Of a stretch of 64,000 bases of DNA, positions 30,846 to 64,000 are shown in pieces. Source of the DNA: Candidatus Aenigmatarchaeota archaeon (lineage in GTDB: Archaea; Aenigmatarchaeota; Aenigmatarchaeia; QMZP01; QMZT01). The position numbers and the translations under genes were made by a program. The DNA is taken from positions 124,711 to 188,710 of the forward strand of contig JAFGCI010000004.1 in NCBI GenBank assembly GCA_016932735.1, given 5' to 3'. Below the pieces are notes generated by a model. It was not told the origin of the DNA and searched no databases. It saw only the letters and a list, made by a program, of their open reading frames with translations. Within the stretch, counting starts at the first letter, position 1. Each line of letters begins with the position of its first letter.

Positions 30846-30854
30846 ATCATCACC

Positions 30855-31556: not shown

Positions 31557-31560
31557 ATAA

Positions 31561-36693: not shown

Positions 36694-39600
36694 GTGAGCA
36701 GCACTTATAAGTCACAAGGTACAGCTTCAAGTCTATTTATAGTCTTCTCGGTAATATTGTTCTCGCTCACAACACTATTCGTATTAACAGTCTTTGCTTC
36801 TTCTGAGTTCATTGTTTATACGAATAAGGGTACTTATAATCCTGAAGAGCCTATAGTCATAGTCGTAGAAGGTCCCCCCTTCACCGAATTCTATCTGACA
36901 GTTCTCAATAAGAACATGAAGCAGGTATTTCCAATCGGAGACCCTTTATGGAAACTGAACAGCCATGGAATGCACAATTTTTATCTGGAGGGATTTTCAG
37001 AAAGCGGAATGTACACTGCTAAAGTACTTTCCGGAGAAAAGAATACCCAGTCAACTTTTTATGTGGCCTCTTCCCAGACCGAATTAACAGAAGAACCGGC
37101 TGAACAGGAAACACCTGCTTCTGAAAGCAACATCCAGATACAATCAAAAACTGAAGAAAAAAAGGTTATTGTCGCATCTAGGGAAGAGGTAAAAGAGATT
37201 GAAATCTCTGAAAAGCCAAAATATGGACTTGGATGGGAGGAAGTCTGTAAGGAAGGAAAATGCACAAAGACCATAAGCTCATATTTAAGCTCGATGCAGG
37301 ACAGTGAAGGAGAGTACAGGCCGTTCAACGAACTTGTAAAGCTTAATAAGAAGAGTTCAGGCTCTTACCAGTATCTTGAGATAGACTGGAATTCAAATAA
37401 AGTCGGAATGGACCCTTATGCTGTAATAAACCGCCAGAAGGTGGATGACCTTCCCCCATCAATGAGCTTTAACACGATAACAAAAGAAATCGCGGGCCAG
37501 TATAAATGGTCCTACGAATTCAGGAATATACATAACCTTGAAGCAATTGGAATAAAAATAAATTCGAACGGAGGTATTCTAGAAGTCGTGGATGATGACA
37601 CTATAATCATTGACGGAATTGAGTTAGACTTCTCCGACCTTTACAATTCATGCGACGAATATGGCATCTGCACAGACTCGGGAATTATGGTATCGATAGA
37701 CCAGATAGATTTGAACACAGCCGACGTAAGAATAACCAATTTTGAAGGAACTATAGTGCTCCTGGATCCGACAATAAAGTTGCAGACGGCTGACACCCAG
37801 AATCTCGATGACTCCCATGTCAGAAGCAACTCGGCTACCTCGACTTATGGAACAGACACCGCCTTAAGGCTGAGGTCGAGGTCCAACTTCAAATACAGGT
37901 CATATGTGAAATTCAATATCTCTTCAATACCCTCCGCAGCCACGATACAGGATTCTAAGCTTTGCCTTTATTTGTACAGCGACGACTCGACGCCTTCTGC
38001 AGGGGCGTACCACGTTTACGATTACACATGGACAGAGGAAGCGCTCACATGGAACAACCAGCCATGCGGAACCAACTTTGATAGCACCACAAACTGCAAC
38101 ATTACAGCCGAGAACACCCAGACTACAAGCGGAACCGGCTGGATTTGCTGGAATATCACAAAGATGGTTGCAACCGAGAAATATCAGGGAGATGAGAACG
38201 TTTCTGTGGCTATTAAAACAACAGAAACCGACGGCAATGTAGGAGAGGATGCTTTTTATTCGAAGGAGTACACAACTGATACGAGCCTTCGACCTTACCT
38301 TAACATAACCTATGAAATGCCTCCTGCAATTACTTCAGTCGCAAACTCGTCAACAACTGATATATCAACACTGATAACATGGACAACCGATAAGAACGCC
38401 AACTCGTCGGTAGTTTACGGGAACACTACATCACTGCTCGACGGCTCAAATTCATCTGCAACATTTACAACTGCTCATTCAATTCAGCTTACAAACCTGA
38501 ATCCTCAGACGCTTTATTATTACAACGTGACCAGCTGTGGTTTGGGAACCAAGTGCAATACAACAGGCCCTTACAATTTCACAACTTCGGAGTCTCCTGA
38601 TGCAACCAATCCGATAGCTTCGCTGGGAACGAATCCGGTCGCCAATTACAACGATACTGACGGTTCGGTCACATTCGACCTGAAATGCTCCGACAATAGG
38701 GGTGTTGGTACACTCCAGCTCTGGAGCGACTGGACAGGCTCATGGTCAGCCAATCAGACCAACTCATCCCCGGTAAACAACTCGGTCTGGTCGGTCCTTG
38801 TCGAAGGAATCCCCGAAGGCATATGGTCATGGGGAGCCCACTGCAACGACACTTCAGGAAACGAAGGTTGGACAGACTTAAATAGGACAATAACCATTGA
38901 TACGAAGCCGCCACAGATAACATCAGTTACCAATTCATCAACAACATTTGACCATACCGATATAGTATGGACGACCAACGAGCCTGCAAACTCTTCAATA
39001 ATATACGGAAAGATCGAATTTATGGAAGATGGTTATGAGTCATCCACTTCTCTGATTTATTCACATTCACTATACATTGAGAACCTTGACTCCGAAACGC
39101 TGTATTATTACAATGTGACTTCATGCGATTTTATAGGAAACTGCAATACTACGGGACCATATACATTCAAAACGGCTAGAATGCCTGAAGCGGGGATACC
39201 TTTGGTCTATCTTGGAGGCGAACCCCAAAATTACTTCAATTCATCCTCAGGAAATGTAGAATTTGAAATCAAATGCATTGATGACGGCGAGATAGATTCG
39301 CTCCAGCTGTGGAGCGACTGGAGCGGTTCATGGTCTGGAAATGAAACCAACTCAACATCAATAAATGACACATGGTGGAGCTTTTCTGTCAGCGGAATTC
39401 CTGAAGGTACATGGATTTGGGGGGCATCGTGCAGCGACAAAGAAGAGAATACGGGATGGTCGGCACTTAACAGGACGCTTACAATTGATCTGGCACATCC
39501 CGAGATTTCTTTGCAAGACCCTGAGCCATTTTATAACACAACTTCACAGGACGTGAATTTTATTTTCAGGGCGACAGATAATATGGCAACTGTCCTGTCA

Positions 39601-42600
39601 TGCTCTCTTTACATAAACGGATCTTTTTCCGCGGTTAACTCGTCTGTAATAAACGGCTCATTGACAACATTTGAGAAAACGGGTCTTTCCGAAGGACTCT
39701 CTCAGGACTGGGCAATAAACTGCACGGATTATGCAGGAAATTCATACCAGGCTCCGGAAAGGCACTTTTCAATTGATGCAACGCCCCCCATCACTTCTTT
39801 TGAGAATATGCCTATCGATAATTACAATTATTCTTCCCGTTCTCTCTTATTCGAGCTTTACTGCATAGACAATACAGCTCCTCACACCCTTCAGCTATGG
39901 AGCGACTGGTCAGGCTCATGGTCAGCCAATCAGACCAACTCATCCCCGGTAAACAACTCGGTCTGGTCGGTCCTTGTTGAAGGAATCCCTGAAGGCATAT
40001 GGTCATGGGGAGCCTACTGCAAAGACACTCTCGGTAATAGCGATTGGACTGATGTCAACAGAACCCTTACAATTGATATTACAAAGCCTCAAATTACAGA
40101 TGTAACAAATGAATCGATCACTCATACATCGACAATAATATCATGGAATACTGACGAGCCTGCAAATTCCAGTATTTCATACGGAAGAACGGAAGACCTT
40201 AATGAAGGAATTTCATATTCATCAAATTTTGTGTTTTTTCATCAGGCAAGCCTTTCAAGTCTTTTATGCGATACGCTCTATTACTATAATATAACGTCCT
40301 GCGACTTTGCAGGAAACTGCGACACGACAGGGCCGTACAGCTTTAGGACAAAGCAATATCAGCCTCTTCTAGTGAATACGGTTACGGCATGCGCAGCACA
40401 TGATTCCAAGGCGAGAGGAACATTTGACATAGCATGCGACGCTCCCGACGGCTCTTACCTTGAATCAAATGACGGGAACTACGAAGACCACACGTATACA
40501 AAATCGCTTTATGCCGGAGTGAGGATAGAATCAGTAGATGCAGAAGAGACCAAGTGCTATGGAATTGAGTCTGTTTATATATGTTACGAATGGTGGGGCA
40601 CCAATACTCCTCAGGACTGCGATATATCTGTTGATGCTGATGGTGGCGCAAGCTATACAGTCGCGTCATCAACATGCCCGGGAACGATAGCAGATCCTGG
40701 ACCCCAATGCCTTGATGTGACATCACTTGAAACATGGACATGCCAGAATTTTTTTGGCCCGACCGGAACAAGGGCAGTTGCCAAGTCTGAATTCAGAAGG
40801 ACGAGTGCGGGCGGAGGCAGCACTGAAATTGCATATTGGGACATATTATATTTTAACGTGAGCTATCTTGCAGATATAAAGCCTCCCGAAGTTGTTCTCA
40901 ATAATCCTGCTGACAATTTTAATTCAAGCTCCGGAGATATATACTTTAATTGCACAGGTTTTGATGAAGTTAATCTTACCAGCATAAACCTTTATGGAAG
41001 CTGGGGTCCGGGATGGCATCTCAATGCAACAAATGACAGCGTAATTAACAACACATTAACAACATTCAATGTGAAAGGAATAAAAGAAGGGACATATGAA
41101 TGGAACTGCTATGCATGTGGTAACTTTACAAATTGCCAATTTTACTCGGTTAATTATACAATCACAGTCGATACGACAGCTCCAACAGTCTCACTCTCCT
41201 CACCAATTCCGGACTTCAACACGACCTCAGAATCAATAGACTTCATATTCACGGCCACCGACAACCTCGCATCAGCCCTTTCCTGCGACCTTATAATCAA
41301 CGGCTCAGTTGCCGGAACGAACTCATCAACACTAAACGGCACCCTGACAACATTCATCCAATCATCTTTATCAGAAGGCTTAGACCAGACATGGGCAGTC
41401 AACTGTTCCGACTCCGCGCAAAACAGCAATCAGCCATCAGCAAGGACATTCAGCATCGACCGCACAGGACCATCCATCGCCTTCCCATACTACGCCAACG
41501 CGACAAAGAAAACATCATCCCAGACACTGACCATAAACCTCTCCGTGACAGACACAGGACTAGGACCTGACATATGCCTTGTCCATATTGAAGGGCAGTC
41601 AGCAAACCAGACCATCCCATATGTCAGCGGATGGTGCAACGGGACGATCTCACTGACCAATGCGAATGAAGGCAACTCAACAATCTATGCATACGCAAAC
41701 GACACATTGAACAACTTCGGCCTCAACAGTTCCTATGTAATATACATAGACGACTCTCCGCCAATAATCTCATCAGTAACAAACGCATCCACGACCAACG
41801 AAACAACATTAATCACATGGTCGACCAACGAGCCAGCCAACTCTTCTGTAATCTACGGGACCGACAACACGACCCTGTCAGACGGCTCTAACTCATCCGA
41901 AACCTTAACAAGCTCACACTCATTAGCCCTTAAAGACCTGACACAGGACACCATGTATTACTACAATGTGACATCCTGCGACTCACTAAACAACTGCATA
42001 ACAGAAGGTCCATACAGTTTCAAAACGGCTTTATCAGAGGACGATTTTGATTCTCCGGTAATAAGCCTTATTCTTCCGTTAAACAATTCCGGGGACAATG
42101 ACGGAAACGTCTCTTTTTCATACAACGTCACAGACGACTCTAGCATCTTGAATTGTTCGTTGATTTTGAACGGGCAGATAAACCAGACGAATTCGACTGT
42201 CCAGAAAACAATTACCCAGTATTTCAATGTTACCAGCCTTCCGGCCGGTCATTACAACTGGAGCATAAGATGCACTGACGATTCGCCTAATGAAAACACA
42301 CAGACCACAGCATCAAGAAATATTGACATGATAATTTATTCGGCCCCGGTGGAAAACTTTACAATGACAGACTTGTCACAGGTTGATACTTCAAACATCA
42401 CGGATTTCTATATAGAGATAGAAAATAAGACGAGACTTATATTCAACGAGACTCTGGATTTATCAGGCGGATTAGATTTGTCATCAATAATAACAATCCA
42501 GAGCAATTTCATAGATGTCGATACAGCCTCTGAGCCAAGGCTCAATAAATCTGCAGAAATAACTTTCCATAATCTTTCCTATATCTTTAATCCGGTCATA

Positions 42601-45600
42601 CTAAGGAACGGGAAAGAATGCCCGTCTTCTATATGCATGGACAATTATTACAATTTGGGAGAAGGTGTTCTCAGGTTTAATGTAACCCAGTTTACAAACT
42701 ATTCAAGTTCCGAAAACAGCCGGCTTGAAATCTGGGACAGCGGTGATGAAGAGGGCGGGCTTAATATACACAATCCCGGTGATATTGTGGCATTCTATGC
42801 CAATTATACCAATTTGACAAGTTCCGAATCAATAAACGGAACTGGAATAAACTGTACAATAAATTTCGAGGATGGCAGCATCAACATGACCTTTAATGAA
42901 AGCTCTGCTATATACTGGTATAACAGGACTTTCACGACAGCCGGGCTGAAAGAATGGAACGTTTCCTGCAACGGTTCAGTTCAGGACTATGAGCCCCTTA
43001 TCGTCACGGAAACAATTACCATATACGAGCCATGGTGGAACGACAGCTGGAAGTACAGGATTCCAGTGACTATAGAGAATTATTCATATGTGCTTGAAGA
43101 CTTCCAGGTTCTGATAACAATTGACAGTTCAAGCGCTCCTGAAAACTGGAACTGGTCCCAGCAGAACGGAGTCCGCTTCGTTTGGGTGAACGATTCAGGC
43201 GACATTGAAATTCCTCATTATACACCTTACTGGAGTGCCGTTTCTGAGGAAGCGCAGATATGGATAAAGATGCCTGAGATTTCGAATGTTACCAATGAAA
43301 CTGTTCACCTGTATTATGAAAATCCGTCAGCTTCAGATACAAGCAACGCCACAAAAGTCTATGATGTCTATAATGACTTTGAATCCGGAATGGATTATTT
43401 TACACAAAGGAACACAGACGGCGGAGCATGTTCATTAAGCGGGGGAAGGCTTGTCTGCGATCCGAACACACAATGGTCAGGCGCTTATGCCTACACAGAT
43501 TACAACTTCACAACAAAGTATGGATACTACATAGAATTCCGGATGTGGAAAAACCAGTCGACATCAGGATCACCTCCCTTCGGATTCAGTACAGTTTATA
43601 TGAGGAAACCTTATCCGGATCTGGGCTATGAGACTACCTATTATTATACAGCCCAGTCGTCGTCGCTGATAATAGAGGATCGTGTCGATACAGGAAGCTA
43701 CAATGAACAGCAGACTTATGCCAAATGGAACAACGGCACATTCACAGGCAAAGATGACAAATCATGGGCTCAGTACGATAACCAGCCTTATGATTATATT
43801 GTGGTATGGGATACGGACAGCAACATTCTTTCCCAGAACGTAACCCATAACGGTACTTTGCATTCTTCCCAAAGTTATATTCCTGAAAGCGTAATAACCG
43901 ACATTGGAAGCTGGTGGAAGCTGGAAGTCGGAACCTTTGGCTACTATGACACTAATGCAGAATATGATTCCATATCTATGAGAAAATACATAGCAGATGA
44001 AATTGCTCTGTATTACGGCGAAGAGGAGACATCCGGACTCGTTCTAAGCGTAACCAGCCCGTCAAACACATCCTATTCGAATGCGACAATGACTTACAGC
44101 GGATATACAAACAACAACGCTACAATAAGAATGAGCATCAACGGAAACGATAATTATACTTTCTGCTCAAGCTGCACGTCTTTTGGCCTGTCGACATCTG
44201 AAAATGTTACGGAAGGCTCCAATAACGTGACCTTCTGGGCAATCAGCACTGCAAATACATCAGTGGTTGTCAATGAAACAGTATGGTTTTACTTAGATAC
44301 GATTGTGCCTGAAGTTGAATGGAATCCGGAAGCGACCGAGTCAGGGACGCAGTCAAACGTTGAAATTTTGATTAACTGCTCTTTTGATGAAACAAACCCC
44401 CATACAAAAGGATACCAGTTCAATGGAACAAATTCGACCTCATGGGACGGCAACGACGGAATGAATTACTGGGTTGTAAAGAACAGTCTGGAATTCGGAA
44501 ACTACAACGATATATATTGCTGGATAAATGACACCCTCGGACATTATAACGAGACTTCAAAAAGAGAAATAAGCATTCTATGGCTGGATTGGTGGGACGC
44601 GGACTGGACACTAAGAACACCCATAAGTCTTGAAGAAAAAGCGGATAAATATGACTTAATTAATATGACCTTTATGCTGTCGATTAATACATCAAAACTT
44701 TATAATGAAGGCAAAATAAGAGACGACTGCGGGGATATAAGGTTTGTCTATAATGAATCGCATAAGGAGATTCCATATAACTTCACGGAATGTGAAATCA
44801 CGGGCGGAAATACGACATTCTGGATAATGTTTGATCTCGATCGTGCTGATACAATGCTACTGTACATGTACTACAACAATTCAGAGGCGTCAGCAACAAG
44901 ACAGACTCTGAAGCCATACGATACTGAGGATTGTACATTCTTTGACAGTCTTGACGGCTCGACAGCAGGTTCTATAACAGGCTCTGAATTCACGGACTAT
45001 GAATGGGTTACTGATGGCAGGGGAGCAGGCATGCTTTATGAACTTACATCGTCATTTGAGAATTCATGGGCTTACAATCCGGGTTCCGAGGGAACTATTG
45101 AATTCTGGCTAAAGCTTGACGAGGAAATAAATACATCAAGCACGGTGTCTGCCAAGACAATAATTTCATCGGGAAGGAACGGCATATCATTTGATCAGGC
45201 AAGCGGCGCAAATAATGTTCCGGGCCACATTATATTTGGCATCTCACCATCTGCGGGATTCTATTCGGAGATTTACACAAATCAGGACAAATGGTATGAA
45301 GATAACTTCTATCATATAGCCGTTACGTGGGACGGTTCCACTCAGAGCATATATGTAAACGGAACCCTTGACAAGAGCCAGACGCAGACGAGAGCAGGTG
45401 GATGGGGTTCATCTGTTCTGACAAACAGGAATTCCAACTGGGGGAGCAATGCTTATAAGATAAGTAACGTAAGATTATGCCCGGCAGCAAAAACATCCTT
45501 CCAGTATGTCGTTTATCCGGAGCCGAATTCAACTATTCAGCCGGAGGAAACAGTGCCTTTCCTTGATATCGGTTCACCAGTCAATACAACCTATTATTCG

Positions 45601-47625: not shown

Positions 47626-47870
47626 TTCATTCCAGAGCCAATAATTATATAAATTATATAATTAATTAACCAACATACGAGTGGGCAAGAATCAGTGCTT
47701 GTCAGAGCAATAGTTAAAACACGAGTGCGAGGTGTTTTGTGAGGGGAGAAGCGAGGGGAGTCGTTAGATGTTTGGTTATATCTAATAAGAACTCCTCATT
47801 TTTTTTACCGGTAAGAGAACAGCCGATTTACTCTTATCTCTCCCCCAAATAACCGGTCAGGGAGAGTCAG

Positions 47871-57300: not shown

Positions 57301-60300
57301 GCTTTCCCCTTCCAGAATAAACCTGGGCGAAAATTCCACATACAACCTCACGATATTCAATCCATGGTCTAAGAATGCAACCGATATCAACATAACAATC
57401 AACTGCCCGGAAAATATAAATCTGACATGCCGGTGCGACATGTCGGGGCAGAGCGGCGAAAACTGTACTATAAGCAACATAGAAAGGACGCTTCTGGACA
57501 CCTGGCTGGAAACTTCATGGCCTTACAGAAGGCCCATCAACATAACAGAAAACACCGGCGAGGAACTTAGTGATTACCAAATTTATTATGTTTTCGATAC
57601 TACCCCCTACATAGCCTCCGGAGTCATGAATTCATCATGCAAGGACATAATGTTCTCTGATTATACAGGGGCAAATCTTCCTTATTTCCTTGAGCCGGGA
57701 ACATGCAATACGACAAACACGAGCATCTGGATAAAGGTTTCCAATATTGCCGCATCGGAAAACACAACAATATACCTTTATTATGGCAACATGAACACGG
57801 AAAGCGCAAGCAATGAAATCAGCACTTTCAGTTACGACACATTGCAGGCTTTGTACTATGAGCTTAGCGACGAAGCCTCGGGAAGCAATGTCTATATATC
57901 AGCTTATCAGGACGGAACATCAGTAAGCGTTGAAGGGACGACAGAGACGGTTGACAGGCAGGAATCTGTTTTGTTCGGATCTGTCTCACAAGGAACTTCA
58001 ATAAGCTCTACCGGACCTGTTTCAGGAAAGATGGCGATAACAGAGACCGGTACAATAGCACCTATAGCATTTGCCGGAAAGCAGTTTGCATTCCCATATG
58101 TAAGGACGGGAAACAACAATGATGTCTGGCAGGTCAGGACGCTTTTCGGCGATGCGAACATCACGCTTTACAACTACACAGCAGCGGGAGCTTTTGTAAA
58201 CTCTACATCTTTCATAATTCCAGATTCAACGACAACAACTATAACATTCAACATAAATGATACAGGAATGGGAATTCTGGAATCGAACGTTTCAATAATT
58301 GTTGAATACAGGGCCGGAGGAGGGAGTGACTCCGAAGTCCTTTATCCTGCAACAACCGAACTTTATGGAGTGTCAAGCAGCGGCTACGTCGGTGCTCTGG
58401 AAGACGGGACGACTGTATATGCGTACAGCAGCACCGGGAACAGTCCCGCCACAATAAATTTGGACAGAGGCGAAAGCTCTGCCTTGGGTTCTACAGGAGG
58501 TCAGGGAGCAGGCAGTTCTTTTCATCTCGTTTCCAATAAACCCATTGTCGGAATAAGCCAGGCAGACGGTGACGGGAATGAGGCAACAGTCTTCTGGCAT
58601 CCGAGAGAATTCAACAGTGAATATATCATCCCCTCACCCTCGGAATATATTGCAGTTGCATGTCCTCGGACAACAAATATCACGCTTTATTATTCCAACG
58701 GAACCTATTATTCGAGCCAGCTCTGCCAGTCCACAAACTCAAGTTCTGAATATGCAAGGAAAGCTCTTTTCACATGCAGTGGAAGTGCATGCTACACTGC
58801 AGGTATGATGGTTTCATCAAACGACACATTCTTTGCATACCACGAATACACCGACCAGGATGAAACCAACATGCTTAGCTTTAAGCAGGCAAGGAAGTCG
58901 GTATCTTCCGAACCGACATTATCGACATTAGGAAACGAGGAAACAAACATGTATAATGAATCGGTAAGCTTCCTTCTGATTACAAATTCTTCCACAGAAT
59001 TCGGCGACTATGACGTGAATGTAACGGTCACATACAAAAATCTCGGCAATGAAACAAAAACATACGAATACAGGAACAACCAAATACTGGAAATAAGGGT
59101 TGAAGGAGTCCAGCTCACTGATTTCAATTACCCTGTTAATGTCACAAGAAACAACACGATAAACCTGACCACTTATGTCAACAATACACGCGATTCCGGA
59201 GACGCGACCAACGTGTGGGTAAATTACACGACTTTGCCTGCGAACTGGTCGATAACAGCAGGCTACCAGAACCTTATGGTAGGTGACCTCTCTCCGGGGG
59301 AAATCAACTGGAGCAATATAACAGTTGATATAAACATAAACGCCACGCAGGGCCCCCAGCAGCTTGCAATAGAATCTAGCTCCGATGAAGGCTACTTCGA
59401 CAGGATAAGACCGGAGATAACAGTCTTTGCTGGGACCGATGTGAATCTTTATTCAAACGTTACTGATATAGTCATAGGAAATCAGGTAAAGCTTCTCGCC
59501 CACCTGACACTGGATACAGGAGCGGATTCAGTTTCAAAAAATATATCATTCTATGACAATTCCACTTATCTCGGCTCTGCAATAACCAACTCCACTGGCT
59601 GGAGCCAGCTTATTTACACCATACCGGTAGGCTCTGAAGTCAGGAACCACACATTCAATGCTACATATAGTATCAATTCCACTTCATACACATGGCAGTC
59701 TTATGATGAAAAGAATATCTCGGTTCACGACAAACCTTTAATAACAAATATAAGCGCATTGCCCAATGTACAGGGATTCGGGCAGAATGTAACCATAACA
59801 GCAAACGTTACGGATGAGGAAACCGTCGACTTTGTTAGAAGTTACATAACATATCCCAACACATCCTCGTTGTTGCTGACGCTTTCCAACGCGACTATGG
59901 ACATCTACAACAATACTTTCTCCAATACATGGCAGGCCGGCATTCATAGTTATTATATATGGGCAAACGACTCTCTTGGATACTATAATACATCAGACAC
60001 ATTTAATTTCCGCGTAAGCTCAAACGGAAGCCTTATAATAAGAGGCGACAAGAGTTCCTACGGTCCCAATGAAAATATAGCCGTCAACGGGACGCCTCTT
60101 GACTGGTGGAACGATTCATGGATTTACAGGAAGGCCGTCATCATTCAGGAGACAGGCGGCAGCAACCTTTATGAATACCAGATAAAACTGAACCTGACTT
60201 CCGGTAATTTCAATTTCTCAAAGACTAACCAGACAGGAGATGATATCAGGTTCATCTGGTATAATTCGACAAGTTCCCAGTATGAACTGGTCCCATACTG

Positions 60301-63300
60301 GATAGAGAAATGGAATTATAGTATGCCTTCGGCTTTAATATGGATTCAGGTACCGAAAATCACCGCTTCCCAAAACACGACCATATATATGTATACCACA
60401 CCATCACTTGAGGTTTCAGCTGCGAGCAACAAGACTTCTGTATTTTCTTTCGATGCGGGGAGGGGAATCTATTATATAGTTAATTACAGGGATTCAGGTG
60501 TTCAGGTAAACCTGACAGCCTACGAAAACTCGACAAATATAACCATAGGAGCTTACACCACACTGATTAACGAATACGATACGGAAACCATAAACCCTTC
60601 ATACGTATCTCAGGGAGCGGAGATAAATGTAACGGGACCCCTGTCCGGAAGGGCTTTGGGAACATCCAACGATGCAATACACCCGATATCATGGGCTGGA
60701 AAAAACTTCACCATGGCCTGTACCAGAAGCACCGATGAATGGAGCTTCTACTCGCCTTTCGGAAATGCAAACGTAAAGATATATGAAGGTGTATCTGGAA
60801 CCGCGAAAACCTCTTTCACTGTTACAAAAGGAACTGCATATACATCATCAACCGATATTTCAGATGGCAACGGTGTTGTCATCGAATCGGATTATCCGAT
60901 CCTTGTGACACACGGAAGCTCGCAGGCTCAGGATGTTGCCCCCTTATATCCGGCAAGCAACGACCTTTGGGGCGTCTCTTCAGGAAACTCGTATTTCTCA
61001 GTTCTTGAAGACGGGACAAGCGTGACCGTGTATTTCAGCGACGGTACATACGACAGCTATTCTAATCTTATGAGGGGGACATACTCTACAATAGGGAATG
61101 GCGGAGGAGACGGAACAGGCGACGGTGTCCACATTGTCTCCAGTAAAAGAATATCCGCCATATCTCAGGGAGACGGCGACGGAGGAGAGATAACATCGTT
61201 CCTTCCTGAAGACGAGCTTGACACAGAATACGTGCTCCCGACAGGAGCTGAATATGTGGCTGTAGTGTGCGTAAGAGATAACACAAACGTGACAGTATAC
61301 AATTCCGATGGCTCGTTCAATTCGAGTATGATGTGCAACACGACTTCATACCCATATCCGAATAAACTGGTGTTTGGAAACATATCGGGAGATACACCGG
61401 CTCCTGTCTGTTATTCGCAGGGTGTCAGGTTCGTTGCAAACGACAGCATATATATATACTATGAATTCGCTGATGGCACGAACGACGGGGAAGAAACAAA
61501 CATACTTAATGAAAAGCAGGGCCGCCAATATTTCTATCCGGAACCCGTTCAAAGGATATCATATGAAGAAGAAAATATGGATTATGCACATCTTCAGGAC
61601 GTCGGCTCGACCAACATGAGTGGTTACCTTCTTGTAAAAATACAGCAAAACTCCGGCGGCGGATGGGTTGATTTTGCAACAATTATTAATGATATTTCTG
61701 ATTCGACAACAAGAACGATTAATACATCCATACCGCTGAACATAACAAAACTATGGAATGATATAGGCGGATGGAACACCGACAGATATCAGAACGGAAG
61801 CTACAGGATATATGCATCATTTCTGGATCCTTCGGGCAATGTCCTTTACAGCGACGACAGAGGCTATATGACATATATACACAATTTCACCATAACACCT
61901 CCGCCGGCTATAATATATATTACTAATATAACAGTCTACGACGTGACCGACAAAGAGAACCCACAGACCAATACATCAGAATTGACAGGCTATGGGACAA
62001 ACACAACATTCAACATGTATACAGGAAGCCAATACCGTGTTGAATTCCTTCTTGAAAGCAGCGCTTCAAGCACTGGCTCTTGGAATATAGCCGGTTCCAA
62101 TGCAACCCATTCCGGCCTCCATTCCAACTGGACAGTCAATGCCAGCAAGGGTTATGGGAACTGGTGGAACTCTTCATGGACTTATAGGTTCCCCGTAACA
62201 ATAAACGCGACGTCGCAAAACAGGACAGACCTTCCGATAGAATATGTGGTGAACTTCACCCAGAAGCTGGCCGATTTCGGTATTACAGAAAAAACATTCG
62301 ACAACAATTCCATAAGGGTTATAGAGTATAATACAACAACTGACGCAGTCCTCCATGAAATACATTCCCAGTTTGATAATTCAAGCACATACAATGCAAC
62401 TATAAATGCCATAGGAGAGCTTATCTGGATAATGAACGGAACCACTCTTAGCGGGGACGCAAGGAAATACTACATTTATTTTGATACGACAGATAACCCT
62501 AAGTCAGAACCGTCATATACAACGGAACTGTCTTATACATTCAATGCCGGAAATACCCTTATACATAGCGACCATCTCAATGTGACCATAGACAACTCAG
62601 GCGTCATAGATGACATAAGAAGCCTCGATGGAAACAGCTCGGACGTCGTCGAGGACTGGTACTGGAACTATTTCAGGGTCGAGAATCCATGGACTCTCCA
62701 GAGCAACGTCAACGGAAACTGGGCATACCGCTACTGCGGTCCTGTCAGGTGTAAGATAGTAGTCGATGGAATAACCCTGACAGGTGACTTCTCTGACCTG
62801 AACACAACATATCATGTCTATTCACAATCAAGGGAAGTCAGGAGCTTCAAGAACTGGACAATGGTCAACTCCCAGGGCCTTCAGATAGGCGACGACCTGA
62901 ATGTAGGAACGCTGTCCAACTTTACATGCACCGGTTCAAACCCGAGCTGGATAGAAGTTGATTATATGGATGCGTCGGGTTCTTCAGAGAGAACTGACAG
63001 GAACGGTGCGTATGCATATGACAGCGGCTGGTGGGCTTACACAATTACGAGCAGCAGCTACTGGGACGCGTATGCAGTTGTCAGGAAGTATGTGACAGAC
63101 GACCTTGGGAATAATTTCACAATGCATACCAATTGGTACGATTCTAGTGAACATTCAGCAGGATGGGAGCAGGGAACAAGTAACGGAGGAACAGACTTTA
63201 CCGCGGGAAGGAGTTATTCAGCAGCAAACTGGTATCATGTGACTACAAACACGAATAAGACGAGCTACCAGTACGCGGTCGATTATTATAATAATGTCCT

Positions 63301-64000
63301 GAACGAGGTCTCAATAACCAACGGAAGCGTGAGCCAGGTTCCGTCACCTTCAGATGTATGGTATTCGAACATAACATCAACTTATGTGGGCGGCAATTTT
63401 ACATCAGGCATTGTCAGCTGGAACACAAGTCTGGGAGGGACTGTCGGAATAGGAGGGCAATCTAAATTCTATTACATACTGAACATAACAAATAACACGC
63501 AGGGCGTATATCCGGTGACTCTTCTGGTTGATGACAGTAATTTCATAAAGAACGATTATTCCACATTCAATATTATATTCTCCGAGACAAATCCACCGGT
63601 GTTGTATAATAATATCTATGGAAGGACTTTGTCCAAGATAAACAGAGGCCAGTCAACCACATTTTATGCAAGGTGGAACGAGACAATAAAATCAGCATTC
63701 ATTGAATACAACTCCACCACACCTGCCCTCAATAATTATTCCATAACATTGCCAAGCCCGAATTTGCAGAATTGGACAAACTATACGATATCGACGACAA
63801 ATATATGGATTCTTGGACAGCATTCAGGGAAGATATATGCGACAGACCTCAACGATAACCAGAACAATACACTGAGTTACCTTACGTTTGAAGTGTGGGG
63901 AGTCGCAAAACTGTCTTCGTCGGCACTTTCACCCTCTGCCATAAACGTTACAGAGAATTCGACAATGAGCTGCAGGGTAATAGATACAACAGACAATAAT
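48392..64000 (+). CDS. Second giant surface protein (more than 5200 aa, 3' end beyond the window); paralog of the first giant with DUF2341-like, LamG-like, CARDB-like and Ig-like modules
   Basis: A continuous open frame from the ATG at 48392 to the window end by manual translation. The ORF track lists no long plus-strand ORF here because no stop lies inside the window. N-terminus MKKSQVKFGSGQLSILFVFIAVLIFTVSF, then a domain about 50% identical to the first giant's N-terminal domain (FPLGDPVWTLNSYGMHNFYLEGFGENGLY vs FPIGDPLWKLNSHGMHNFYLEGFSESGMY). At least 7 WWNxSWxYR (DUF2341-like) modules, one LamG-like domain (about 50230-50650), three CARDB-like domains. Sequon-dense throughout. Confidence 0.75.
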   Translation, partial: MKKSQVKFGSGQLSILFVFIAVLIFTVSFTGIGQSASPIVVTCNKDNYDTNEVMAFQVQGDAGKEFGFYIYGPDGEKVFPLGDPVWTLNSYGMHNFYLEGFGENGLYKAVAVFGEESFEKVFTVVSAAESESNIEDKQELLPVEKNVEEETMNGEKTETEIQASKRPPGKYMHYKKILSYQPDAIKEIPEGAINVNVYTVGKPGKGTLADKTGPSETVIEYYAPSGPVRGSDSFGNPIQESAENERYKLASYGTVINLVEAKETPGKVRLTYEIMNEGGKDFSYIALTSSQKPIVNAFRFAERSRTVYHSNETIYEGDVRESHPYATRKDYIPYDENLQESNYTVICYAYEDSVPYTEREYIEIKSIAILTDFINEWNAESNIIFDPIKEELEAAGANYDINMLEPDILPTFDETVYIYRLEHNPSESTYIEYETPNEKTKFLLLDPAGGSWWNSSWLYTMNLTVDSSLVDAELTDFPVMVNLTSGRFNFSRAQSNGEDIRFVDNYYNDLPHEIEYWNATSQQAIIWTRLSNVSNTTDTTFWMYYGNDAVSDGQNMTGVWDSEFLLVQHLDETSGTYHYDSSQYGNDGTVSSVTMDSAGKIDGGDQILGGSGRYVRHDFNTSNVVTVSAWAQLPDNTDDDMIWVIDRVGVNDLDLWFTDGYTSPRLFLNTWDSDGNPICSQPSGVGNWHLYTMVIDNGNTNLYIDGQLAGSPGYRDPTGVGFYISWTTTYGWNGYVDEVRVSNTSRSLAWINASFYAQNDSLIIYGKEEASSDVWWNISWDFRILVIVNSTNFTRDDDPIEKFINFTQELESLGAAGKTFDNNSIRVFEYDTATNRYLHEVPSQFDNSSSYNATTNAYGEVIWIMNGTTQNNTIRKYYIYFDTTDSPKSEPSYYTDLSYTFNSGNAVIQNEHFEATLDDSGVISDIENYNGSGTDVIENDWYWNAFRTVDDWAIQSFTADWVRRYCGPVRCTISSENITVTDTSYANTTYYVYSKVPEIRSLKSWTMSANEGMQIVDDLNVGGGNTFNCTAGANPSVTGTTMMDSSGDNERTGIDRSAAGLYTSGWWSYRVIGASIDAFAVVRKYAHNSTGGDFQMHTNWYDGGEHSAGWESGYNGGADFQNGQTYTIANCYYLANSTDSDYQYAFGYYNKTMSPVNINLNKTEGLANPMISSSNIQANDTNPQAGDAVLINATIINDGYNNASNIKVRFFDGDENGIQIGSDNLIEFLGPGENGTVEVVWDTTLKGGSHTITVVIDPEDFILSNPSDNIANITINVESSLDLTVLNSEIFFDNDVPSAGEAVNITATIRNTGTSTTASPDVRVKFFDGDPGDNPSSPLSNQIGTDKLISSLPPGNSSNVSVLWDTTGEDGYYDIYVWIDPFDVFLEDNETNNKAYREIAVNPPELYLSSNDIIFNVTSPIEGEDLLINATIHNSGGNPVYNVLVSFYQAADGQNYTLIDTTTLSEIGNASSENASVYWDTTGNSGSYTILVSADSNDNIPEQNEDNNNATKPLFITPNVWVWWNSSWHYRIPVTINTGSYSRTDEPIEKFINFTYELYSLNVTDALDNNSIRVIEYNTTTGKAIHEMPSQFDNVSSYNSSINAYGEVIWILNGTTPSNTDRYFFIYFDIINNSKTAPSYITDLSGSFNAGNTLIHSDHLNVTIDNSGVIDDIRSLDGNSSDVVENWYWNYFRVENPWTNQDYATGNWAYRYCGPVRCKVIVDGITLNADFSNLNTAYHVYSQSREVRSFKNWTMVNSQGLQIGDDLNVGGLTNFTCTGSNPSWIETDYMDTVSDGERTDRSGSYAYESGWWAYTITSSSYWDAYAVVRKYVRDDLGNNITMHTNWWDDGEHAAGWEQGAEYGGTDFTAGRSYSAANWYYVTTNTNTTSYQYAVDYYDRTLNLSQINVSGAEEVPEFNATITSSVGDQIRGTLINLEASATNEGTVDALDVWLNWTLPSGWSVDTGTAEKPLGKLSAGDTEWNNISANNYGAALGEQILYFNASSADGIAGGDYITFNLSANTYLFDFQSDKEEPKVGETIVFQVKLAYDNGTQIPGQNVTFYDKTDGVLMGSNITGSPAYLEYLIPLSASVGTHEINASFTGNDSVFIESSYIIYEIDVKDAPHINSVSASPQTIGYGYTVTITANVTDQTGVDTVRINITYPAGSYYEYDMINTSQDIYEYNFTDSYTWGSFSYTIWSNNTDGENITSSVNYFYVKPNQTMSIQTDKTGYGPNEMVDLKPAGDWWRASWTYRIPINITENSGSSLTDYQIYYTFDSSALIESGKMNSSCKDIRFADTSGTELPYYLEESNCNTNETNVWIKVPQITASGNTTIYLYFNNMEAESESNVTAVFTYDELQELYYEINSRPSNDNLNISAYVNGTNVTISTQSALIDIQEVVTFSSISQGAIINSTGPISGKILDDQTDTFAPMAFAGSKFGFPRTRNGTAYLDVWFIRTPFGDANITIYNYSETGILQNSDSFFVAEGLTTTLTFNIDDEGTGLLESNVSILAGYRQGGNDAVILYPATTELYGVSAPGYVTVLEDDTDLYIYRSGSSTSVSTNLQRGQQYSLGSSGTQGTGNAFHLLSDKPIVAASFGDGDGGEAIVFWHPKELNTEYIIPTDTQYISISCPRTTEISLYYPNGTLNSTEICTSTDSGPEYPRKAYFGCGTTSCGAVYPAGMRALSNDTFYVFYEYTDQDETNVLGHIQARKTSYPEPNLSSGNEELIGSIFDNFGSVNSTGYFLMKVQKYSGGSWATASSGIILEDRNPPPTQRNFTAFTSLDLSTLWGGWNTSICDPGTYRAYVEVVDSANNILKDAWGNDLVSTYNFTLLSPNPEITNLTHENGYEYGIDEYEVGDTIEWINITITNYNATALKANMTLNVIDSSDEQASWGPSSSQYCGDILPENSCMKRWDNSSNGYQIPLDATPGTYTFTWNVSLEWENGDGFVSLNSYTFKVHNLSNYLESELSPSRINLGENSTYNLTIFNPWSKNATDINITINCPENINLTCRCDMSGQSGENCTISNIERTLLDTWLETSWPYRRPINITENTGEELSDYQIYYVFDTTPYIASGVMNSSCKDIMFSDYTGANLPYFLEPGTCNTTNTSIWIKVSNIAASENTTIYLYYGNMNTESASNEISTFSYDTLQALYYELSDEASGSNVYISAYQDGTSVSVEGTTETVDRQESVLFGSVSQGTSISSTGPVSGKMAITETGTIAPIAFAGKQFAFPYVRTGNNNDVWQVRTLFGDANITLYNYTAAGAFVNSTSFIIPDSTTTTITFNINDTGMGILESNVSIIVEYRAGGGSDSEVLYPATTELYGVSSSGYVGALEDGTTVYAYSSTGNSPATINLDRGESSALGSTGGQGAGSSFHLVSNKPIVGISQADGDGNEATVFWHPREFNSEYIIPSPSEYIAVACPRTTNITLYYSNGTYYSSQLCQSTNSSSEYARKALFTCSGSACYTAGMMVSSNDTFFAYHEYTDQDETNMLSFKQARKSVSSEPTLSTLGNEETNMYNESVSFLLITNSSTEFGDYDVNVTVTYKNLGNETKTYEYRNNQILEIRVEGVQLTDFNYPVNVTRNNTINLTTYVNNTRDSGDATNVWVNYTTLPANWSITAGYQNLMVGDLSPGEINWSNITVDININATQGPQQLAIESSSDEGYFDRIRPEITVFAGTDVNLYSNVTDIVIGNQVKLLAHLTLDTGADSVSKNISFYDNSTYLGSAITNSTGWSQLIYTIPVGSEVRNHTFNATYSINSTSYTWQSYDEKNISVHDKPLITNISALPNVQGFGQNVTITANVTDEETVDFVRSYITYPNTSSLLLTLSNATMDIYNNTFSNTWQAGIHSYYIWANDSLGYYNTSDTFNFRVSSNGSLIIRGDKSSYGPNENIAVNGTPLDWWNDSWIYRKAVIIQETGGSNLYEYQIKLNLTSGNFNFSKTNQTGDDIRFIWYNSTSSQYELVPYWIEKWNYSMPSALIWIQVPKITASQNTTIYMYTTPSLEVSAASNKTSVFSFDAGRGIYYIVNYRDSGVQVNLTAYENSTNITIGAYTTLINEYDTETINPSYVSQGAEINVTGPLSGRALGTSNDAIHPISWAGKNFTMACTRSTDEWSFYSPFGNANVKIYEGVSGTAKTSFTVTKGTAYTSSTDISDGNGVVIESDYPILVTHGSSQAQDVAPLYPASNDLWGVSSGNSYFSVLEDGTSVTVYFSDGTYDSYSNLMRGTYSTIGNGGGDGTGDGVHIVSSKRISAISQGDGDGGEITSFLPEDELDTEYVLPTGAEYVAVVCVRDNTNVTVYNSDGSFNSSMMCNTTSYPYPNKLVFGNISGDTPAPVCYSQGVRFVANDSIYIYYEFADGTNDGEETNILNEKQGRQYFYPEPVQRISYEEENMDYAHLQDVGSTNMSGYLLVKIQQNSGGGWVDFATIINDISDSTTRTINTSIPLNITKLWNDIGGWNTDRYQNGSYRIYASFLDPSGNVLYSDDRGYMTYIHNFTITPPPAIIYITNITVYDVTDKENPQTNTSELTGYGTNTTFNMYTGSQYRVEFLLESSASSTGSWNIAGSNATHSGLHSNWTVNASKGYGNWWNSSWTYRFPVTINATSQNRTDLPIEYVVNFTQKLADFGITEKTFDNNSIRVIEYNTTTDAVLHEIHSQFDNSSTYNATINAIGELIWIMNGTTLSGDARKYYIYFDTTDNPKSEPSYTTELSYTFNAGNTLIHSDHLNVTIDNSGVIDDIRSLDGNSSDVVEDWYWNYFRVENPWTLQSNVNGNWAYRYCGPVRCKIVVDGITLTGDFSDLNTTYHVYSQSREVRSFKNWTMVNSQGLQIGDDLNVGTLSNFTCTGSNPSWIEVDYMDASGSSERTDRNGAYAYDSGWWAYTITSSSYWDAYAVVRKYVTDDLGNNFTMHTNWYDSSEHSAGWEQGTSNGGTDFTAGRSYSAANWYHVTTNTNKTSYQYAVDYYNNVLNEVSITNGSVSQVPSPSDVWYSNITSTYVGGNFTSGIVSWNTSLGGTVGIGGQSKFYYILNITNNTQGVYPVTLLVDDSNFIKNDYSTFNIIFSETNPPVLYNNIYGRTLSKINRGQSTTFYARWNETIKSAFIEYNSTTPALNNYSITLPSPNLQNWTNYTISTTNIWILGQHSGKIYATDLNDNQNNTLSYLTFEVWGVAKLSSSALSPSAINVTENSTMSCRVIDTTDNN
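51890..52930 (+). other. Three tandem CARDB-like (cell-adhesion-related, bacterial) domains inside the second giant protein
   Basis: Each unit ends with the CARDB-type E-x-N-E-x-N-N / D-N-I-x-N signature: DPEDFILSNPSDNIANITINV, DPFDVFLEDNETNNKAYREIAV, and SNDNIPEQNEDNNNATKPLFI. Confidence 0.55.
52957..54110 (+). repeat. About 1.15-kb intragenic repeat unit, copy B (DUF2341-like module plus a ~270-aa W/Y-rich domain)
   Basis: Long runs are nearly nucleotide-identical to 62160-63320, e.g. ccggaaatacccttatacatagcgaccatctcaatgtgaccatagacaactc... at 53340 and again at 62547. The minus-strand shadow ORFs 53330-53608 and 62597-62815 encode near-identical peptides. Confidence 0.75.
62160..63320 (+). 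repeat. About 1.15-kb intragenic repeat unit, copy C
   Basis: See copy B. A more diverged copy A lies at about 50711-51870. Confidence 0.75.

What the first reader, a model, noticed from the sequence alone, without database searches (positions are those of the whole stretch)
36694..64000. Two tandem giant paralogous surface proteins (3643 aa and more than 5200 aa) make up a surface/adhesion island
About 27 kb of the window are two same-strand ORFs encoding modular extracellular proteins with FN3-like, Ig-like, CARDB-like, LamG-like jelly-roll and DUF2341-like modules. They share a homologous N-terminal domain after a signal-like helix. Proteins of this size are rare in small AT-rich archaeal genomes. 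There they are candidate adhesins or S-layer-associated structures, for example for cell-cell or host attachment. Neither protein has a recognisable catalytic motif. The second is truncated by the window, so its full size and any C-terminal anchor are unknown. This is the best candidate for an undescribed system in the window.
Basis: partly seen in the sequence, partly recalled or inferred. Interest (0 to 1): 0.8.

Follow-up and report, generated by a model that had tools for sequence, protein, structure and literature searches.

The report
Tandem giant glycoprotein adhesin-like genes
Two neighbouring genes of a tiny symbiotic-type archaeon (Aenigmarchaeota) encode enormous, sugar-coated, secreted proteins built from dozens of binding and spacer modules; they are most likely cell-contact fibres of a kind already suspected in such archaea, but they have previously undescribed conserved end domains and a self-cleaving-type module otherwise known from nuclear pore proteins.

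Summary
ORF1 (36694-47625, 3643 aa) and ORF2 (48392 to the window end, at least 5202 aa) are intact same-strand genes, and a 174-aa membrane-protein gene lies between them. GenBank labels the source a Candidatus Aenigmarchaeota MAG. ORF2 is also cut by the contig end there (5382 aa, partial).

Pfam confirms DUF2341, Laminin_G_3, CARDB, FN3-like and Ig-like modules and CBM96. N-glycosylation sequons are about 2.3-fold enriched.

New findings:
- Both proteins belong to a small family, found here almost only in Aenigmatarchaeota and unclassified archaeal MAGs. It is defined by a roughly 95-aa N-terminal domain and a roughly 280-aa disulfide-type C-terminal domain.
- The tandem pair recurs in at least three other genomes.
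- ORF1 carries two Nup98-type (S59) autopeptidase-like domains. Orthologues keep the HF[S/T] motif, but the window copies read YFS and QFT.
- ORF2 contains two rare modules. B is predicted as ASRT/CBM-like sandwiches. A is unresolved.

Most likely these are secreted, glycosylated, multivalent glycan-binding contact fibres. That makes them a new member of a known kind, not a new system. Interest is moderate.

The parts
36694..47625 (+). ORF1 (P1), a 3643-aa giant secreted modular protein
36694..36798 (+). P1 N-terminal signal or hydrophobic segment; it is the only hydrophobic segment in the protein
36799..37077 (+). P1 family-defining N-terminal domain (NTD, about 95 aa)
37792..38310 (+). CBM96 / DNRLRE carbohydrate-binding-type domain
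   Evidence: E 1.7e-23; E 5e-25
38320..40443 (+). Array of alternating FN3-like (Pur_ac_phosph_N) and Ig-like repeats
42364..42729 (+). S59 (Nup98-type) autopeptidase-like domain, copy 1; motif QF|T at F2000/T2001
43033..43386 (+). DUF2341 domain (P1 aa 2114-2231)
44587..45456 (+). DUF2341 (aa 2632-2734) plus Laminin_G_3 (aa 2796-2921) unit
46117..46479 (+). S59 (Nup98-type) autopeptidase-like domain, copy 2; motif YF|S at F3251/S3252, about 390 aa before the C-terminus
46777..47622 (+). Family-defining C-terminal domain (CTD, about 280 aa) with two invariant Cys pairs, ending ...TIMGNATF; no TM anchor
47871..48395 (+). 174-aa single-pass membrane protein gene; its TGA stop overlaps the ATG of ORF2 (ATGA); conserved in L005
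48392..64000 (+). ORF2 (P2), at least 5202 aa in the window; 5382 aa and still partial in GenBank
48497..48781 (+). P2 NTD
49745..50644 (+). DUF2341 plus Laminin_G_3 unit
50711..51901 (+). Module A copy 1: a DUF2341-like sandwich plus a roughly 270-aa core of unknown fold. Further copies lie at 52955-54136 and 62162-63349
51902..52951 (+). Three CARDB domains
54137..55111 (+). Module C copy 1 (NPCBM_assoc / Big_3_5 / Ig-like); copy 2 lies at 59054-60091
55127..56572 (+). DUF2341 plus module B, copy 1; further copies lie at 57503-58951 and 60104-61591
57503..58951 (+). DUF2341 plus module B, copy 2. This is the copy modelled: pLDDT 80, built of ASRT/TM1070- and CBM-like beta-sandwiches
60104..61591 (+). 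DUF2341 plus module B, copy 3
62162..63349 (+). Module A copy 3

Best explanation
The locus encodes a conserved pair of giant, secreted, heavily N-glycosylated modular surface proteins of an Aenigmarchaeota (DPANN) archaeon, plus a small membrane protein translationally coupled to the second giant.

Each protein has a Sec-type signal followed directly by a conserved roughly 95-aa NTD. A long variable rod follows, made of Ig/FN3 spacers that carry many lectin-type units. These units are CBM96, CARDB, and repeated 'DUF2341 + X' units, where X is LamG, module A or module B. The family ends in a conserved roughly 280-aa cysteine-paired CTD.

Inferred mechanism: the rods project from the cell and bind glycans of a partner cell's envelope, or of the cell's own envelope, multivalently. 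The conserved NTD and CTD dock the otherwise anchorless proteins to envelope partners or to each other. The S59-type domain about 390 aa before the C-terminus can, at least in orthologues with HF[S/T], self-cleave into two non-covalently held chains.

Shown here: the genes, the domain content, the sequon enrichment, and the conservation of the NTD, the CTD and the tandem arrangement. Inferred: surface location, glycan binding, docking, self-cleavage and a role in host contact.
For: - Intact ORFs and domain hits.
- One N-terminal hydrophobic segment per protein, with small-residue cleavage-type sites just before the NTD in eight family members.
- Sequon enrichment: 173 and 218 N-X-S/T sequons against 73 and 96 in shuffles (z 13.6 and 14.8), while cytoplasmic neighbours have 0-0.9 per 100 aa.
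- NTD rarity: an exhaustive HMMER search of 1.84 billion representatives found it N-terminal in three proteins (ORF2 itself and two large proteins from other samples), plus three weak or internal partial matches.
- NTD in a complete genome: a six-sequence NTD profile also detects it in both tandem giants of the complete 0.83-Mb genome CP070662.1.
- CTD conservation: it lies at the extreme C-terminus in the loci that match it full-length, nearly all labelled Aenigmatarchaeota, DPANN-type or unclassified archaeon, with invariant Cys pairs.
- P2-type proteins end in the CTD: a P2-type giant does so in L007, and the 4301-aa giant of CP070662.1, which shares P2's C-terminal units, does so too.
- The tandem pair is conserved in L004, L005 and CP070662.1.
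- S59 homology: PF04096 is the only Pfam family hit by all five archaeal copies; the PDB profile hits are almost all Nup98/Nup116/Nup145; the motif is aligned on HFS.
- Literature proposes the same role for LamG/CARDB/DUF2341 giants in DPANN and CPR organisms.
Against: - There are no expression, localisation or binding data.
- ORF1 has no TM, PGF-CTERM or other known anchor, so attachment to the cell is conjecture.
- The true C-terminus of ORF2 is missing.
- The module A core (about 270 aa, three copies) could not be modelled (pLDDT about 25). It could be enzymatic, which would change the picture.
- Both S59-like copies in the window lack the catalytic His (Tyr3250, Gln1999), so self-cleavage may not occur in this organism.
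- The MAG's taxonomic label and symbiotic lifestyle come from the GenBank name only, and no host is known.
- 'Adhesin' is the default reading for any such protein.
Confidence: 0.55

Rival explanations
1. The giants are structural parts of the cell's own envelope, such as an S-layer-associated sheath or glycocalyx scaffold. In this reading they protect or shape the cell and do not contact a host.
For: Heavy sequon enrichment and Ig/FN3/CARDB content are also typical of archaeal S-layer and envelope proteins. In relatives the giants sit next to conserved membrane-anchored ~250-aa and ~740-aa proteins that look like envelope components. The conserved NTD and CTD would suit lattice or docking contacts.
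Against: The middle parts are highly variable, and modules are shuffled even between close relatives. That pattern is more typical of proteins under diversifying pressure at an interface than of lattice proteins. The family is rare, with only three N-terminal NTD-bearing proteins among 1.84 billion representatives. The proteins are far larger than known S-layer subunits.
Confidence: 0.2
2. The giants are tip adhesins or minor subunits of a type IV pilus-like filament. Such a role has been proposed for large DUF2341 proteins in archaeal T4P loci. The N-terminal helix would be a class III signal processed by a prepilin peptidase.
For: DUF2341 occurs in large proteins of archaeal T4P loci and in PilY-type adhesins. 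The hydrophobic segments are long (about 21-25 aa) and are preceded by K/R...G. One module B homologue (P0004) starts with a classical MKGQ|ASLEY class III signal. A T2SSE-family ATPase gene lies in the window at 1982-3673.
Against: The N-termini do not fit the [KRDE][GA] rule as I recall it. Relatives have ordinary Sec-type n-h-c regions with A-x-A-like sites immediately before the NTD. The ATPase gene is 33 kb away, and no pilin or PilC-like genes flank the giants.
Confidence: 0.1
3. The giants are surface-tethered polysaccharide-capturing or polysaccharide-degrading machines. CBM-type modules would feed an unrecognised catalytic domain (the module A core, or other unassigned regions) for nutrient acquisition or for breaching a host wall.
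For: CBM96/DNRLRE domains are typically appended to polysaccharide-active enzymes (the association with such enzymes is from my own knowledge). Module B resembles ASRT and CBM folds. Module A has many invariant His, Glu, Asp, Trp and Arg residues and no assignable fold.
Against: No glycoside hydrolase, lyase, esterase or protease family is detected by Pfam, NCBIfam or PDB profiles in any unassigned segment. In the other units the position after DUF2341 is held by lectin-type domains (LamG, module B). This suggests that A is a binding module too.
Confidence: 0.1
4. The finding is an assembly artefact or a pair of pseudogenes.
For: The source is a short-read MAG and the genes are repetitive. ORF2 runs off the contig end.
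Against: The reading frames are open for 10.9 kb and at least 15.6 kb. Internal repeats are at most 81% identical at the DNA level. A second assembly gives an identical 13.4-kb contig. Collinear homologues exist in other samples and in a complete genome.
Confidence: 0.02

Closest known systems
Secreted LamG/CARDB/PKD-type giant surface proteins of DPANN archaea (for example Mia14 'ARMAN' and Ca. Nanohalobium constans)
   Same: Very large secreted proteins in small-genome archaea that carry LamG and CARDB modules. They are predicted to be glycosylated and to mediate surface or host interactions, and they take up a notable share of the genome.
   Different: This family has its own conserved NTD and CTD, neither covered by Pfam. 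It occurs as a conserved tandem pair. It also carries S59-like, CBM96, module A and module B units that are not mentioned for those proteins in the passages I read.
Large DUF2341 proteins of archaeal type IV pilus loci (arCOG03508), PilY-type adhesins, and proteins over 4000 aa with DUF2341 in Patescibacteria
   Same: Multiple DUF2341 domains in very large extracellular proteins with a presumed adhesion or host-contact role.
   Different: These genes do not lie in a T4P locus, and no clear class III signal is present. Here DUF2341 acts as the first half of repeated two-part units (DUF2341 plus LamG, A or B).
Nup98/Nup145/Nup116 autoproteolytic domain (MEROPS S59, PF04096), and by analogy the SEA, GAIN and ZU5/FIIND self-cleaving modules
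   Same: The same domain family by sequence: 41 bits against a cut-off of 28.4, and the PDB profile hits are almost all Nup98-family APDs. The terminal strand motif [H/Y/Q]-F-[S/T]-x-Y aligns exactly on H-F-S-K-Y. Orthologues keep HFS or HFT.
   Different: The domain is extracellular, sits in an archaeal surface protein and is embedded between Ig-like domains. In the window both copies have lost the catalytic His. Cleavage is untested. The comparison with SEA, GAIN and ZU5 is from my own knowledge and is only an analogy.
SPEARE proteins of Ca. Nanohaloarchaeum antarcticus
   Same: Unusually large DPANN proteins thought to mediate host attachment.
   Different: No protease, restriction-endonuclease or other SPEARE-type domains were detected here. 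There is no evidence of homology.
ASRT / TM1070 small beta-sandwich family and carbohydrate-binding modules
   Different: Sequence identity is only 11-16%. Module B is a fused array of about four such sandwiches and always follows a DUF2341 domain. Only five homologues were found among 5.8 billion protein clusters.

Membership tests
Giant modular secreted surface (adhesin-like) proteins of DPANN archaea | N-terminal secretion signal and no cytoplasmic-type domains | tested here: met
   Each protein has a single N-terminal hydrophobic segment followed by A-x-A-like sites. All recognised domains are extracellular types. No dedicated signal-peptide predictor was available.
Giant modular secreted surface (adhesin-like) proteins of DPANN archaea | LamG / CARDB / Ig-like / DUF2341 module content | tested here: met
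   Pfam: DUF2341 (68.9 to 110.1 bits in the three segments searched), Laminin_G_3, CARDB x3 and Big_3 domains.
Giant modular secreted surface (adhesin-like) proteins of DPANN archaea | Encoded in a DPANN genome | tested here: met
   The proteins match GenBank MBN2101898/900/901 exactly; these are named 'Candidatus Aenigmarchaeota archaeon'. Relatives lie in Aenigmatarchaeota, Nanobdellati and Micrarchaeota MAGs. This rests on the depositor's label; I did no phylogeny.
Giant modular secreted surface (adhesin-like) proteins of DPANN archaea | Demonstrated surface location and partner-cell binding | not testable with these tools
   Needs proteomics, microscopy or binding assays.
MEROPS S59 / PF04096 Nup98-type autopeptidase | Sequence match above Pfam's gathering score | tested here: met
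   Copy 2 scores 41.3 bits against a cut-off of 28.4. Copy 1 alone scores 18.9 bits. All five family copies hit only PF04096, best E 3.3e-11. PDB profile hits are almost all Nup98/116/145 APDs.
MEROPS S59 / PF04096 Nup98-type autopeptidase | Ser (or Thr) nucleophile after Phe at the scissile position | tested here: met
   F3251|S3252 and F2000|T2001 align on the Nup98 HF|S position.
MEROPS S59 / PF04096 Nup98-type autopeptidase | Catalytic His of the His-Phe-Ser dyad (dyad described in PMC1560137) | tested here: not met
   The window copies read Y-F-S and Q-F-T. Orthologues L005 (HFS), L008 (HFT) and L015 (HFT) keep the His.
MEROPS S59 / PF04096 Nup98-type autopeptidase | Actual self-cleavage | not testable with these tools
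   Needs expression of the domain followed by mass spectrometry.
Archaeal T4P-associated DUF2341 tip adhesins (arCOG03508-type) | Class III (prepilin) signal peptide | tested here: inconclusive
   K/R...G precedes a long hydrophobic stretch, but family members have Sec-like cleavage sites directly before the NTD. FlaFind was not available.
Archaeal T4P-associated DUF2341 tip adhesins (arCOG03508-type) | Location in a type IV pilus gene cluster | tested here: not met
   The neighbouring genes are sugar-nucleotide genes and an HTH protein. The only T2SSE ATPase gene is 33 kb upstream.
Membrane- or lipid-anchored archaeal S-layer glycoproteins | C-terminal TM helix or PGF-CTERM-type anchor | tested here: not met
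   ORF1 ends ...TLTIMGNATF and has no second hydrophobic segment. The C-terminus of ORF2 is unknown.
SPEARE proteins | Serine protease plus restriction endonuclease domains in a giant protein (composition recalled from my own knowledge) | tested here: not met
   No such Pfam hits.
CBM96 / DNRLRE domain proteins | Full-length match to PF24517 / NF033679 | tested here: met
   ORF1 aa 367-539: E 1.7e-23 (83.7 bits, cut-off 26) and E 5e-25 (88.4 bits, cut-off 34).

The most novel reading that the evidence does not exclude
The NTD...S59...CTD giants are a distinct, Aenigmatarchaeota-specific class of surface fibre. In this reading a Nup98-type autopeptidase domain acts as a programmed breakpoint: self-cleavage leaves the roughly 390-aa CTD piece non-covalently holding the multi-thousand-residue rod, as in the Nup98-Nup96 pair or SEA-domain mucins. 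The conserved ends dock to dedicated membrane partners, namely the co-translated 174-aa protein here and the ~250-aa and ~740-aa proteins in relatives. If so, S59, a domain the papers I searched report only from eukaryotic nucleoporins, would have an archaeal, extracellular relative or forerunner.
Probability: 0.2. Interest if true: 0.65.

Novelty: new member of a known kind. Interest (0 to 1): 0.42.

Why it matters
DPANN archaea are thought to live attached to other cells, yet the molecules that make contact are almost entirely unknown. This locus gives a concrete family that can be followed across genomes: conserved NTD and CTD ends, a conserved tandem pair, and neighbouring membrane partners. 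It offers candidate contact proteins for any future Aenigmarchaeota culture. It also shows that a large share of these giants is still unassigned: modules A and B, the P2 N-terminal region and a Cys-rich region of P1. Separately, a well-supported archaeal homologue of the Nup98 autoproteolytic domain, with the HF[S/T] motif kept in orthologues, may interest people working on the origin of nuclear-pore parts and on self-cleaving surface modules.

Tried and rejected
- **Extending ORF2.** An exact look-up of ORF1 failed. The look-up of the 174-aa protein gave only the 13.4-kb contig L001. A genome-contig scan with the end of ORF2 found nothing. P0015 (5382 aa) is the GenBank partial protein and has no contig on record. 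The 3' end therefore stays unknown. Collinearity with CP070662.1 suggests about 750 more residues ending in the CTD; this is an extrapolation.
- **Word-indexed search with the NTD** found nothing. The exhaustive search was needed.
- **Module A structure.** The core is at pLDDT about 25, so no fold search was attempted on it.
- **Profile searches against PDB sequences.** Profiles of modules A and B, the NTD and the CTD gave nothing meaningful.
- **The afdb50 fold library** was unavailable.
- **Synteny of the glmS cluster and the HTH gene** with relatives: none.
- **The 174-aa protein** is not detectably related to the ~250-aa proteins that follow CTD giants in other genomes.
- **The 'FNVT[HEQ]F[QD]' segment** before the CTD in P0018, L006 and L007 resembles the S59 end strand by eye. 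My S59 profile does not detect it, so I do not claim homology.
- **Literature searches** for prokaryotic S59 homologues found none. The library is incomplete, so this is not proof of novelty.
- **A diversity-generating retroelement** was not looked for systematically.
Full report
**1. Observation**

The window holds an uninterrupted + strand ORF at 36694..47625. It encodes 3643 aa and has a GTG start 6 nt after GAGGGGG. A second + strand frame opens at ATG 48392 and stays open for 5202 codons to the last base. From base composition about 5.8% of codons would be stops, so such runs have chance probabilities near 1e-95 and 1e-135.

It encodes a protein with one TM helix, and its TGA stop overlaps the ATG of ORF2 (ATGA).

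An independent Logan assembly contig of run SRR13394437 (L001, 13,413 nt) is identical to window 39948-53360. That stretch covers the end of ORF1, the small gene and the start of ORF2. DNA repeats inside the ORFs are at most 81% identical. The genes are therefore real and not a collapsed-repeat artefact.

**2. Source**

Exact look-ups identify the 308-aa upstream protein, the 174-aa protein and ORF2 as GenBank MBN2101898.1, MBN2101900.1 and MBN2101901.1. All come from a 189-kb contig of a MAG named 'Candidatus Aenigmarchaeota archaeon'.

ORF2 is deposited as a 5382-aa 'partial' DUF2341 protein (P0015). It equals the window ORF2 plus 180 aa and ends mid-repeat (...EVWGWMGAS). The contig therefore ends about 540 nt beyond the window, and the C-terminus is unknown in public data as well.

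Other genes in the window are archaeal housekeeping genes: RtcB, PheRS alpha and beta, XPF, CTP synthase and PPDK. The region is 42-46% GC.

**3. Domain content**

Pfam finds the following in ORF1:
- CBM96. NCBIfam independently calls the same stretch a DNRLRE domain (E 5e-25).
- Three FN3-like Pur_ac_phosph_N stretches.
- Big_3_3.
- Two DUF2341 domains.
- Laminin_G_3.
- PF04096, the Nup98-96 S59 autopeptidase (E 2.2e-10, 41.3 bits against a cut-off of 28.4).

In ORF2 it finds three CARDB domains, at least four DUF2341 stretches in the two segments searched, Laminin_G_3, Big_3_5 and, just below threshold, NPCBM_assoc.

Self-comparison gives the module map listed under 'parts'. A recurring theme is a two-part unit, 'DUF2341 + X'. 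X is LamG, a roughly 270-aa core (module A, three copies) or a roughly 375-aa module (B, three copies). Modules A and B, ORF2 aa 131-451, ORF1 aa 130-366 and a Cys-rich stretch (ORF1 aa ~1250-1386) have no Pfam match even at E = 1.

Both proteins are acidic and Asn/Ser/Thr-rich. They carry 173 and 218 N-X-S/T sequons, against 73 and 96 in composition-preserving shuffles (z 13.6 and 14.8). Cytoplasmic neighbours have 0-0.9 sequons per 100 aa. Each protein has only one hydrophobic segment, at the N-terminus.

**4. The shared ends define a small family**

*N-terminal domain.* The NTDs of the two proteins are 35-42% identical. A word-indexed search found nothing.

An exhaustive HMMER search of 1.84 billion representatives returned six proteins:
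- ORF2 itself.
- A 555-aa fragment resembling ORF1 (P0016).
- A 2446-aa protein, P0018.
- Three weak or internal partial matches: a Yarrowia mucin-like protein, an Echinicola MBG-domain protein and an unnamed 701-aa protein (names). I treat these as not belonging to the family.

P0018's contig (L004) shows the same layout as the window. P0018 has the NTD and a C-terminal region 36-38% identical to the last ~280 aa of ORF1. It is followed immediately by a 3970-aa protein that also starts with the NTD and is collinear with ORF2-specific modules.

*C-terminal domain.* Scans with this CTD found three metagenome loci and fourteen loci in GTDB species genomes. The titled hits are mostly Aenigmatarchaeota, 'Nanobdellati', 'Micrarchaeota' or unclassified archaeal MAGs. 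There are also three weak partial hits in Methanosarcinales, Woesearchaeota and Halobacteria MAGs. In the loci that match it full-length, the CTD lies at the extreme C-terminus and ends ...TIMANA[ST][WFY]. In the five-sequence alignment it has two invariant Cys pairs.

*What individual loci show.*
- L005 (81% CTD identity) repeats the window's gene order: an ORF1 orthologue, a 173-aa small gene (49% identical, with the same ATGA overlap) and a second giant. That second giant has an ORF1-like first 745 aa (43% identity) and ORF2-like later modules, so modules are exchanged between the paralogues.
- L007 is an ORF2-type giant containing modules B and C that ends in the CTD.
- The complete 832,879-bp chromosome CP070662.1 has tandem 1773-aa and 4301-aa proteins. 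Both have the NTD (E 1e-13 and 7e-15 with a six-sequence profile) and both have the CTD.

From this I infer that the missing end of ORF2 carries the CTD. By collinearity with CP070662.1 it would lie about 750 aa beyond P0015. This is an extrapolation.

*N-termini and neighbours.* The N-termini of eight family members look like Sec signals, with small-residue sites directly before the NTD (VFA|SS, VLA|SS, ISA|EE, FSA|EE and similar). This was read by eye, without a predictor.

In six other loci the CTD giant is followed by a conserved ~250-aa protein (signal plus C-terminal TM) and a ~740-aa protein ending in the TM motif LLIYIFLWYLGxVPLF. The window cannot show whether it has them. The glmS/GNAT/HAD-CofD/NTP-transferase/PGM cluster and the HTH gene upstream are not syntenic with the giants elsewhere.

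**5. The S59-like domains**

ORF1 has two copies, at aa 1891-2012 and aa 3142-3262. They are 44% identical to each other.

Alignment to solved Nup98, Nup145 and Nup116 domains places ORF1's 'FTVSYFSNYS' on 'FKVSHF(S)KYG'. This puts F3251|S3252 on the scissile Phe|Ser. Copy 1 reads QF|T (F2000|T2001).

Orthologous copies in L005, L008 and L015 read HFS, HFT and HFT. All five copies match PF04096 and no other Pfam family (best E 3.3e-11). A profile of the five hits almost only Nup98-family autoproteolytic domains in the PDB (E down to 6.7e-5).

The family is described as having a His/Ser dyad within His-Phe-Ser and as being found across eukaryotes (PMC1560137). My literature searches found no report of prokaryotic members, but the library is incomplete.

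The homology is therefore solid. Activity is plausible in the orthologues. It is doubtful in this organism, where His is replaced by Tyr and by Gln. The domain always sits about 270-380 aa before the C-terminus, so cleavage would separate the CTD piece from the rod.

**6. Rare modules**

Module B has only five homologues among 5.8 billion protein clusters. Three carry a DUF2341 domain (501-648 aa) and two are shorter proteins of 384 and 424 aa. One of them has a classical class III signal.

Module A has only partial homologues, covering its DUF2341-like first third, in Lokiarchaeota and Aenigmarchaeota fragments. Its core could not be modelled (pLDDT about 25).

**7. Interpretation**

The best-supported reading is a pair of secreted, N-glycosylated, multivalent glycan-binding fibres. 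They belong to a kind repeatedly proposed, but never functionally characterised, for DPANN archaea and CPR bacteria.

How the fibres stay on the cell is unknown. They have no TM or known anchor. The conserved NTD and CTD and the translationally coupled 174-aa membrane protein are the obvious candidates for docking.

The rivals are an envelope scaffold, a pilus tip adhesin, an enzyme carrier and an artefact. They are weighed in their own sections.

**8. Verdict**

This is a new member of a known kind, with undescribed family-level features: the NTD and CTD caps, the conserved tandem pair, the S59-like module, and modules A and B. Interest is moderate.

Noticed in passing
window 47871-48395 (+); L005 2784-3305: A 174-aa membrane protein lies between the giants. 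It has a cytoplasmic basic N-terminus, one TM helix and a roughly 115-aa beta-rich ectodomain, with no Pfam or NCBIfam hit. Its stop codon overlaps the start of ORF2 (ATGA). The same arrangement, at 49% identity, occurs in a related metagenome contig. It is a candidate membrane dock for the giants.
   Followed up: partly
window 11307-14015 (+): A 902-aa ORF with a signal-like N-terminus, 2.7 sequons per 100 aa and no Pfam match. It looks like another uncharacterised secreted glycoprotein.
   Followed up: no
window 35665-36591 (+): GenBank calls this 308-aa protein an 'S-layer protein'. It has an ArsR-type HTH at the N-terminus, only a partial S_layer_C / S_layer_MJ match (aa 174-271) and no signal peptide. 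It is probably a cytoplasmic regulator and the name is probably misleading.
   Followed up: partly
window 29412-35504 (-): A divergently oriented sugar-nucleotide cluster: PGM/PMM, NTP transferase, a HAD-CofD/YvcK-family fusion, GNAT and GlmS. It could supply UDP-GlcNAc-type precursors for the very many N-glycan sites. It is not syntenic with the giants in relatives.
   Followed up: partly
L009, L011, L012, L013, L014, L016 (for example L013 10708-11469 and 11471-13678): In other Aenigmatarchaeota genomes the CTD-bearing giant is followed by a conserved gene pair. One encodes a ~250-aa protein (signal, beta domain, acidic linker, C-terminal TM). The other encodes a ~740-aa protein ending in the TM motif LLIYIFLWYLGxVPLF. 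In CP070662.1, MoxR-type ATPase genes lie nearby.
   Followed up: partly
L005 3302-7832: The second giant of this close relative has a first 745 aa that are 43% identical to the window's ORF1, not ORF2. Its later modules are ORF2-like. This is evidence of module exchange between the tandem paralogues.
   Followed up: partly
L005 ~1249-1644; L008 ~1877-2269; L015 ~1100-1486: Orthologous S59-like domains keep the canonical HFS or HFT motif, whereas both window copies have lost the His (YFS, QFT). The site may be decaying in this lineage, or a different catalytic arrangement may be in use.
   Followed up: partly
window 1982-3673 (-): A T2SSE-family secretion/pilus ATPase gene lies 33 kb upstream of the giants. 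It is the only pilus-type gene I saw in the window.
   Followed up: no
L002 6911-8782; L003 1312-3180; P0004: Module B also exists as stand-alone proteins of ~500-650 aa that carry DUF2341 plus module B. One has a classical archaeal class III (prepilin-type) signal, MKGQ|ASLEY. In L002 the unit is split into two ORFs next to a LytTR response-regulator pair.
   Followed up: no
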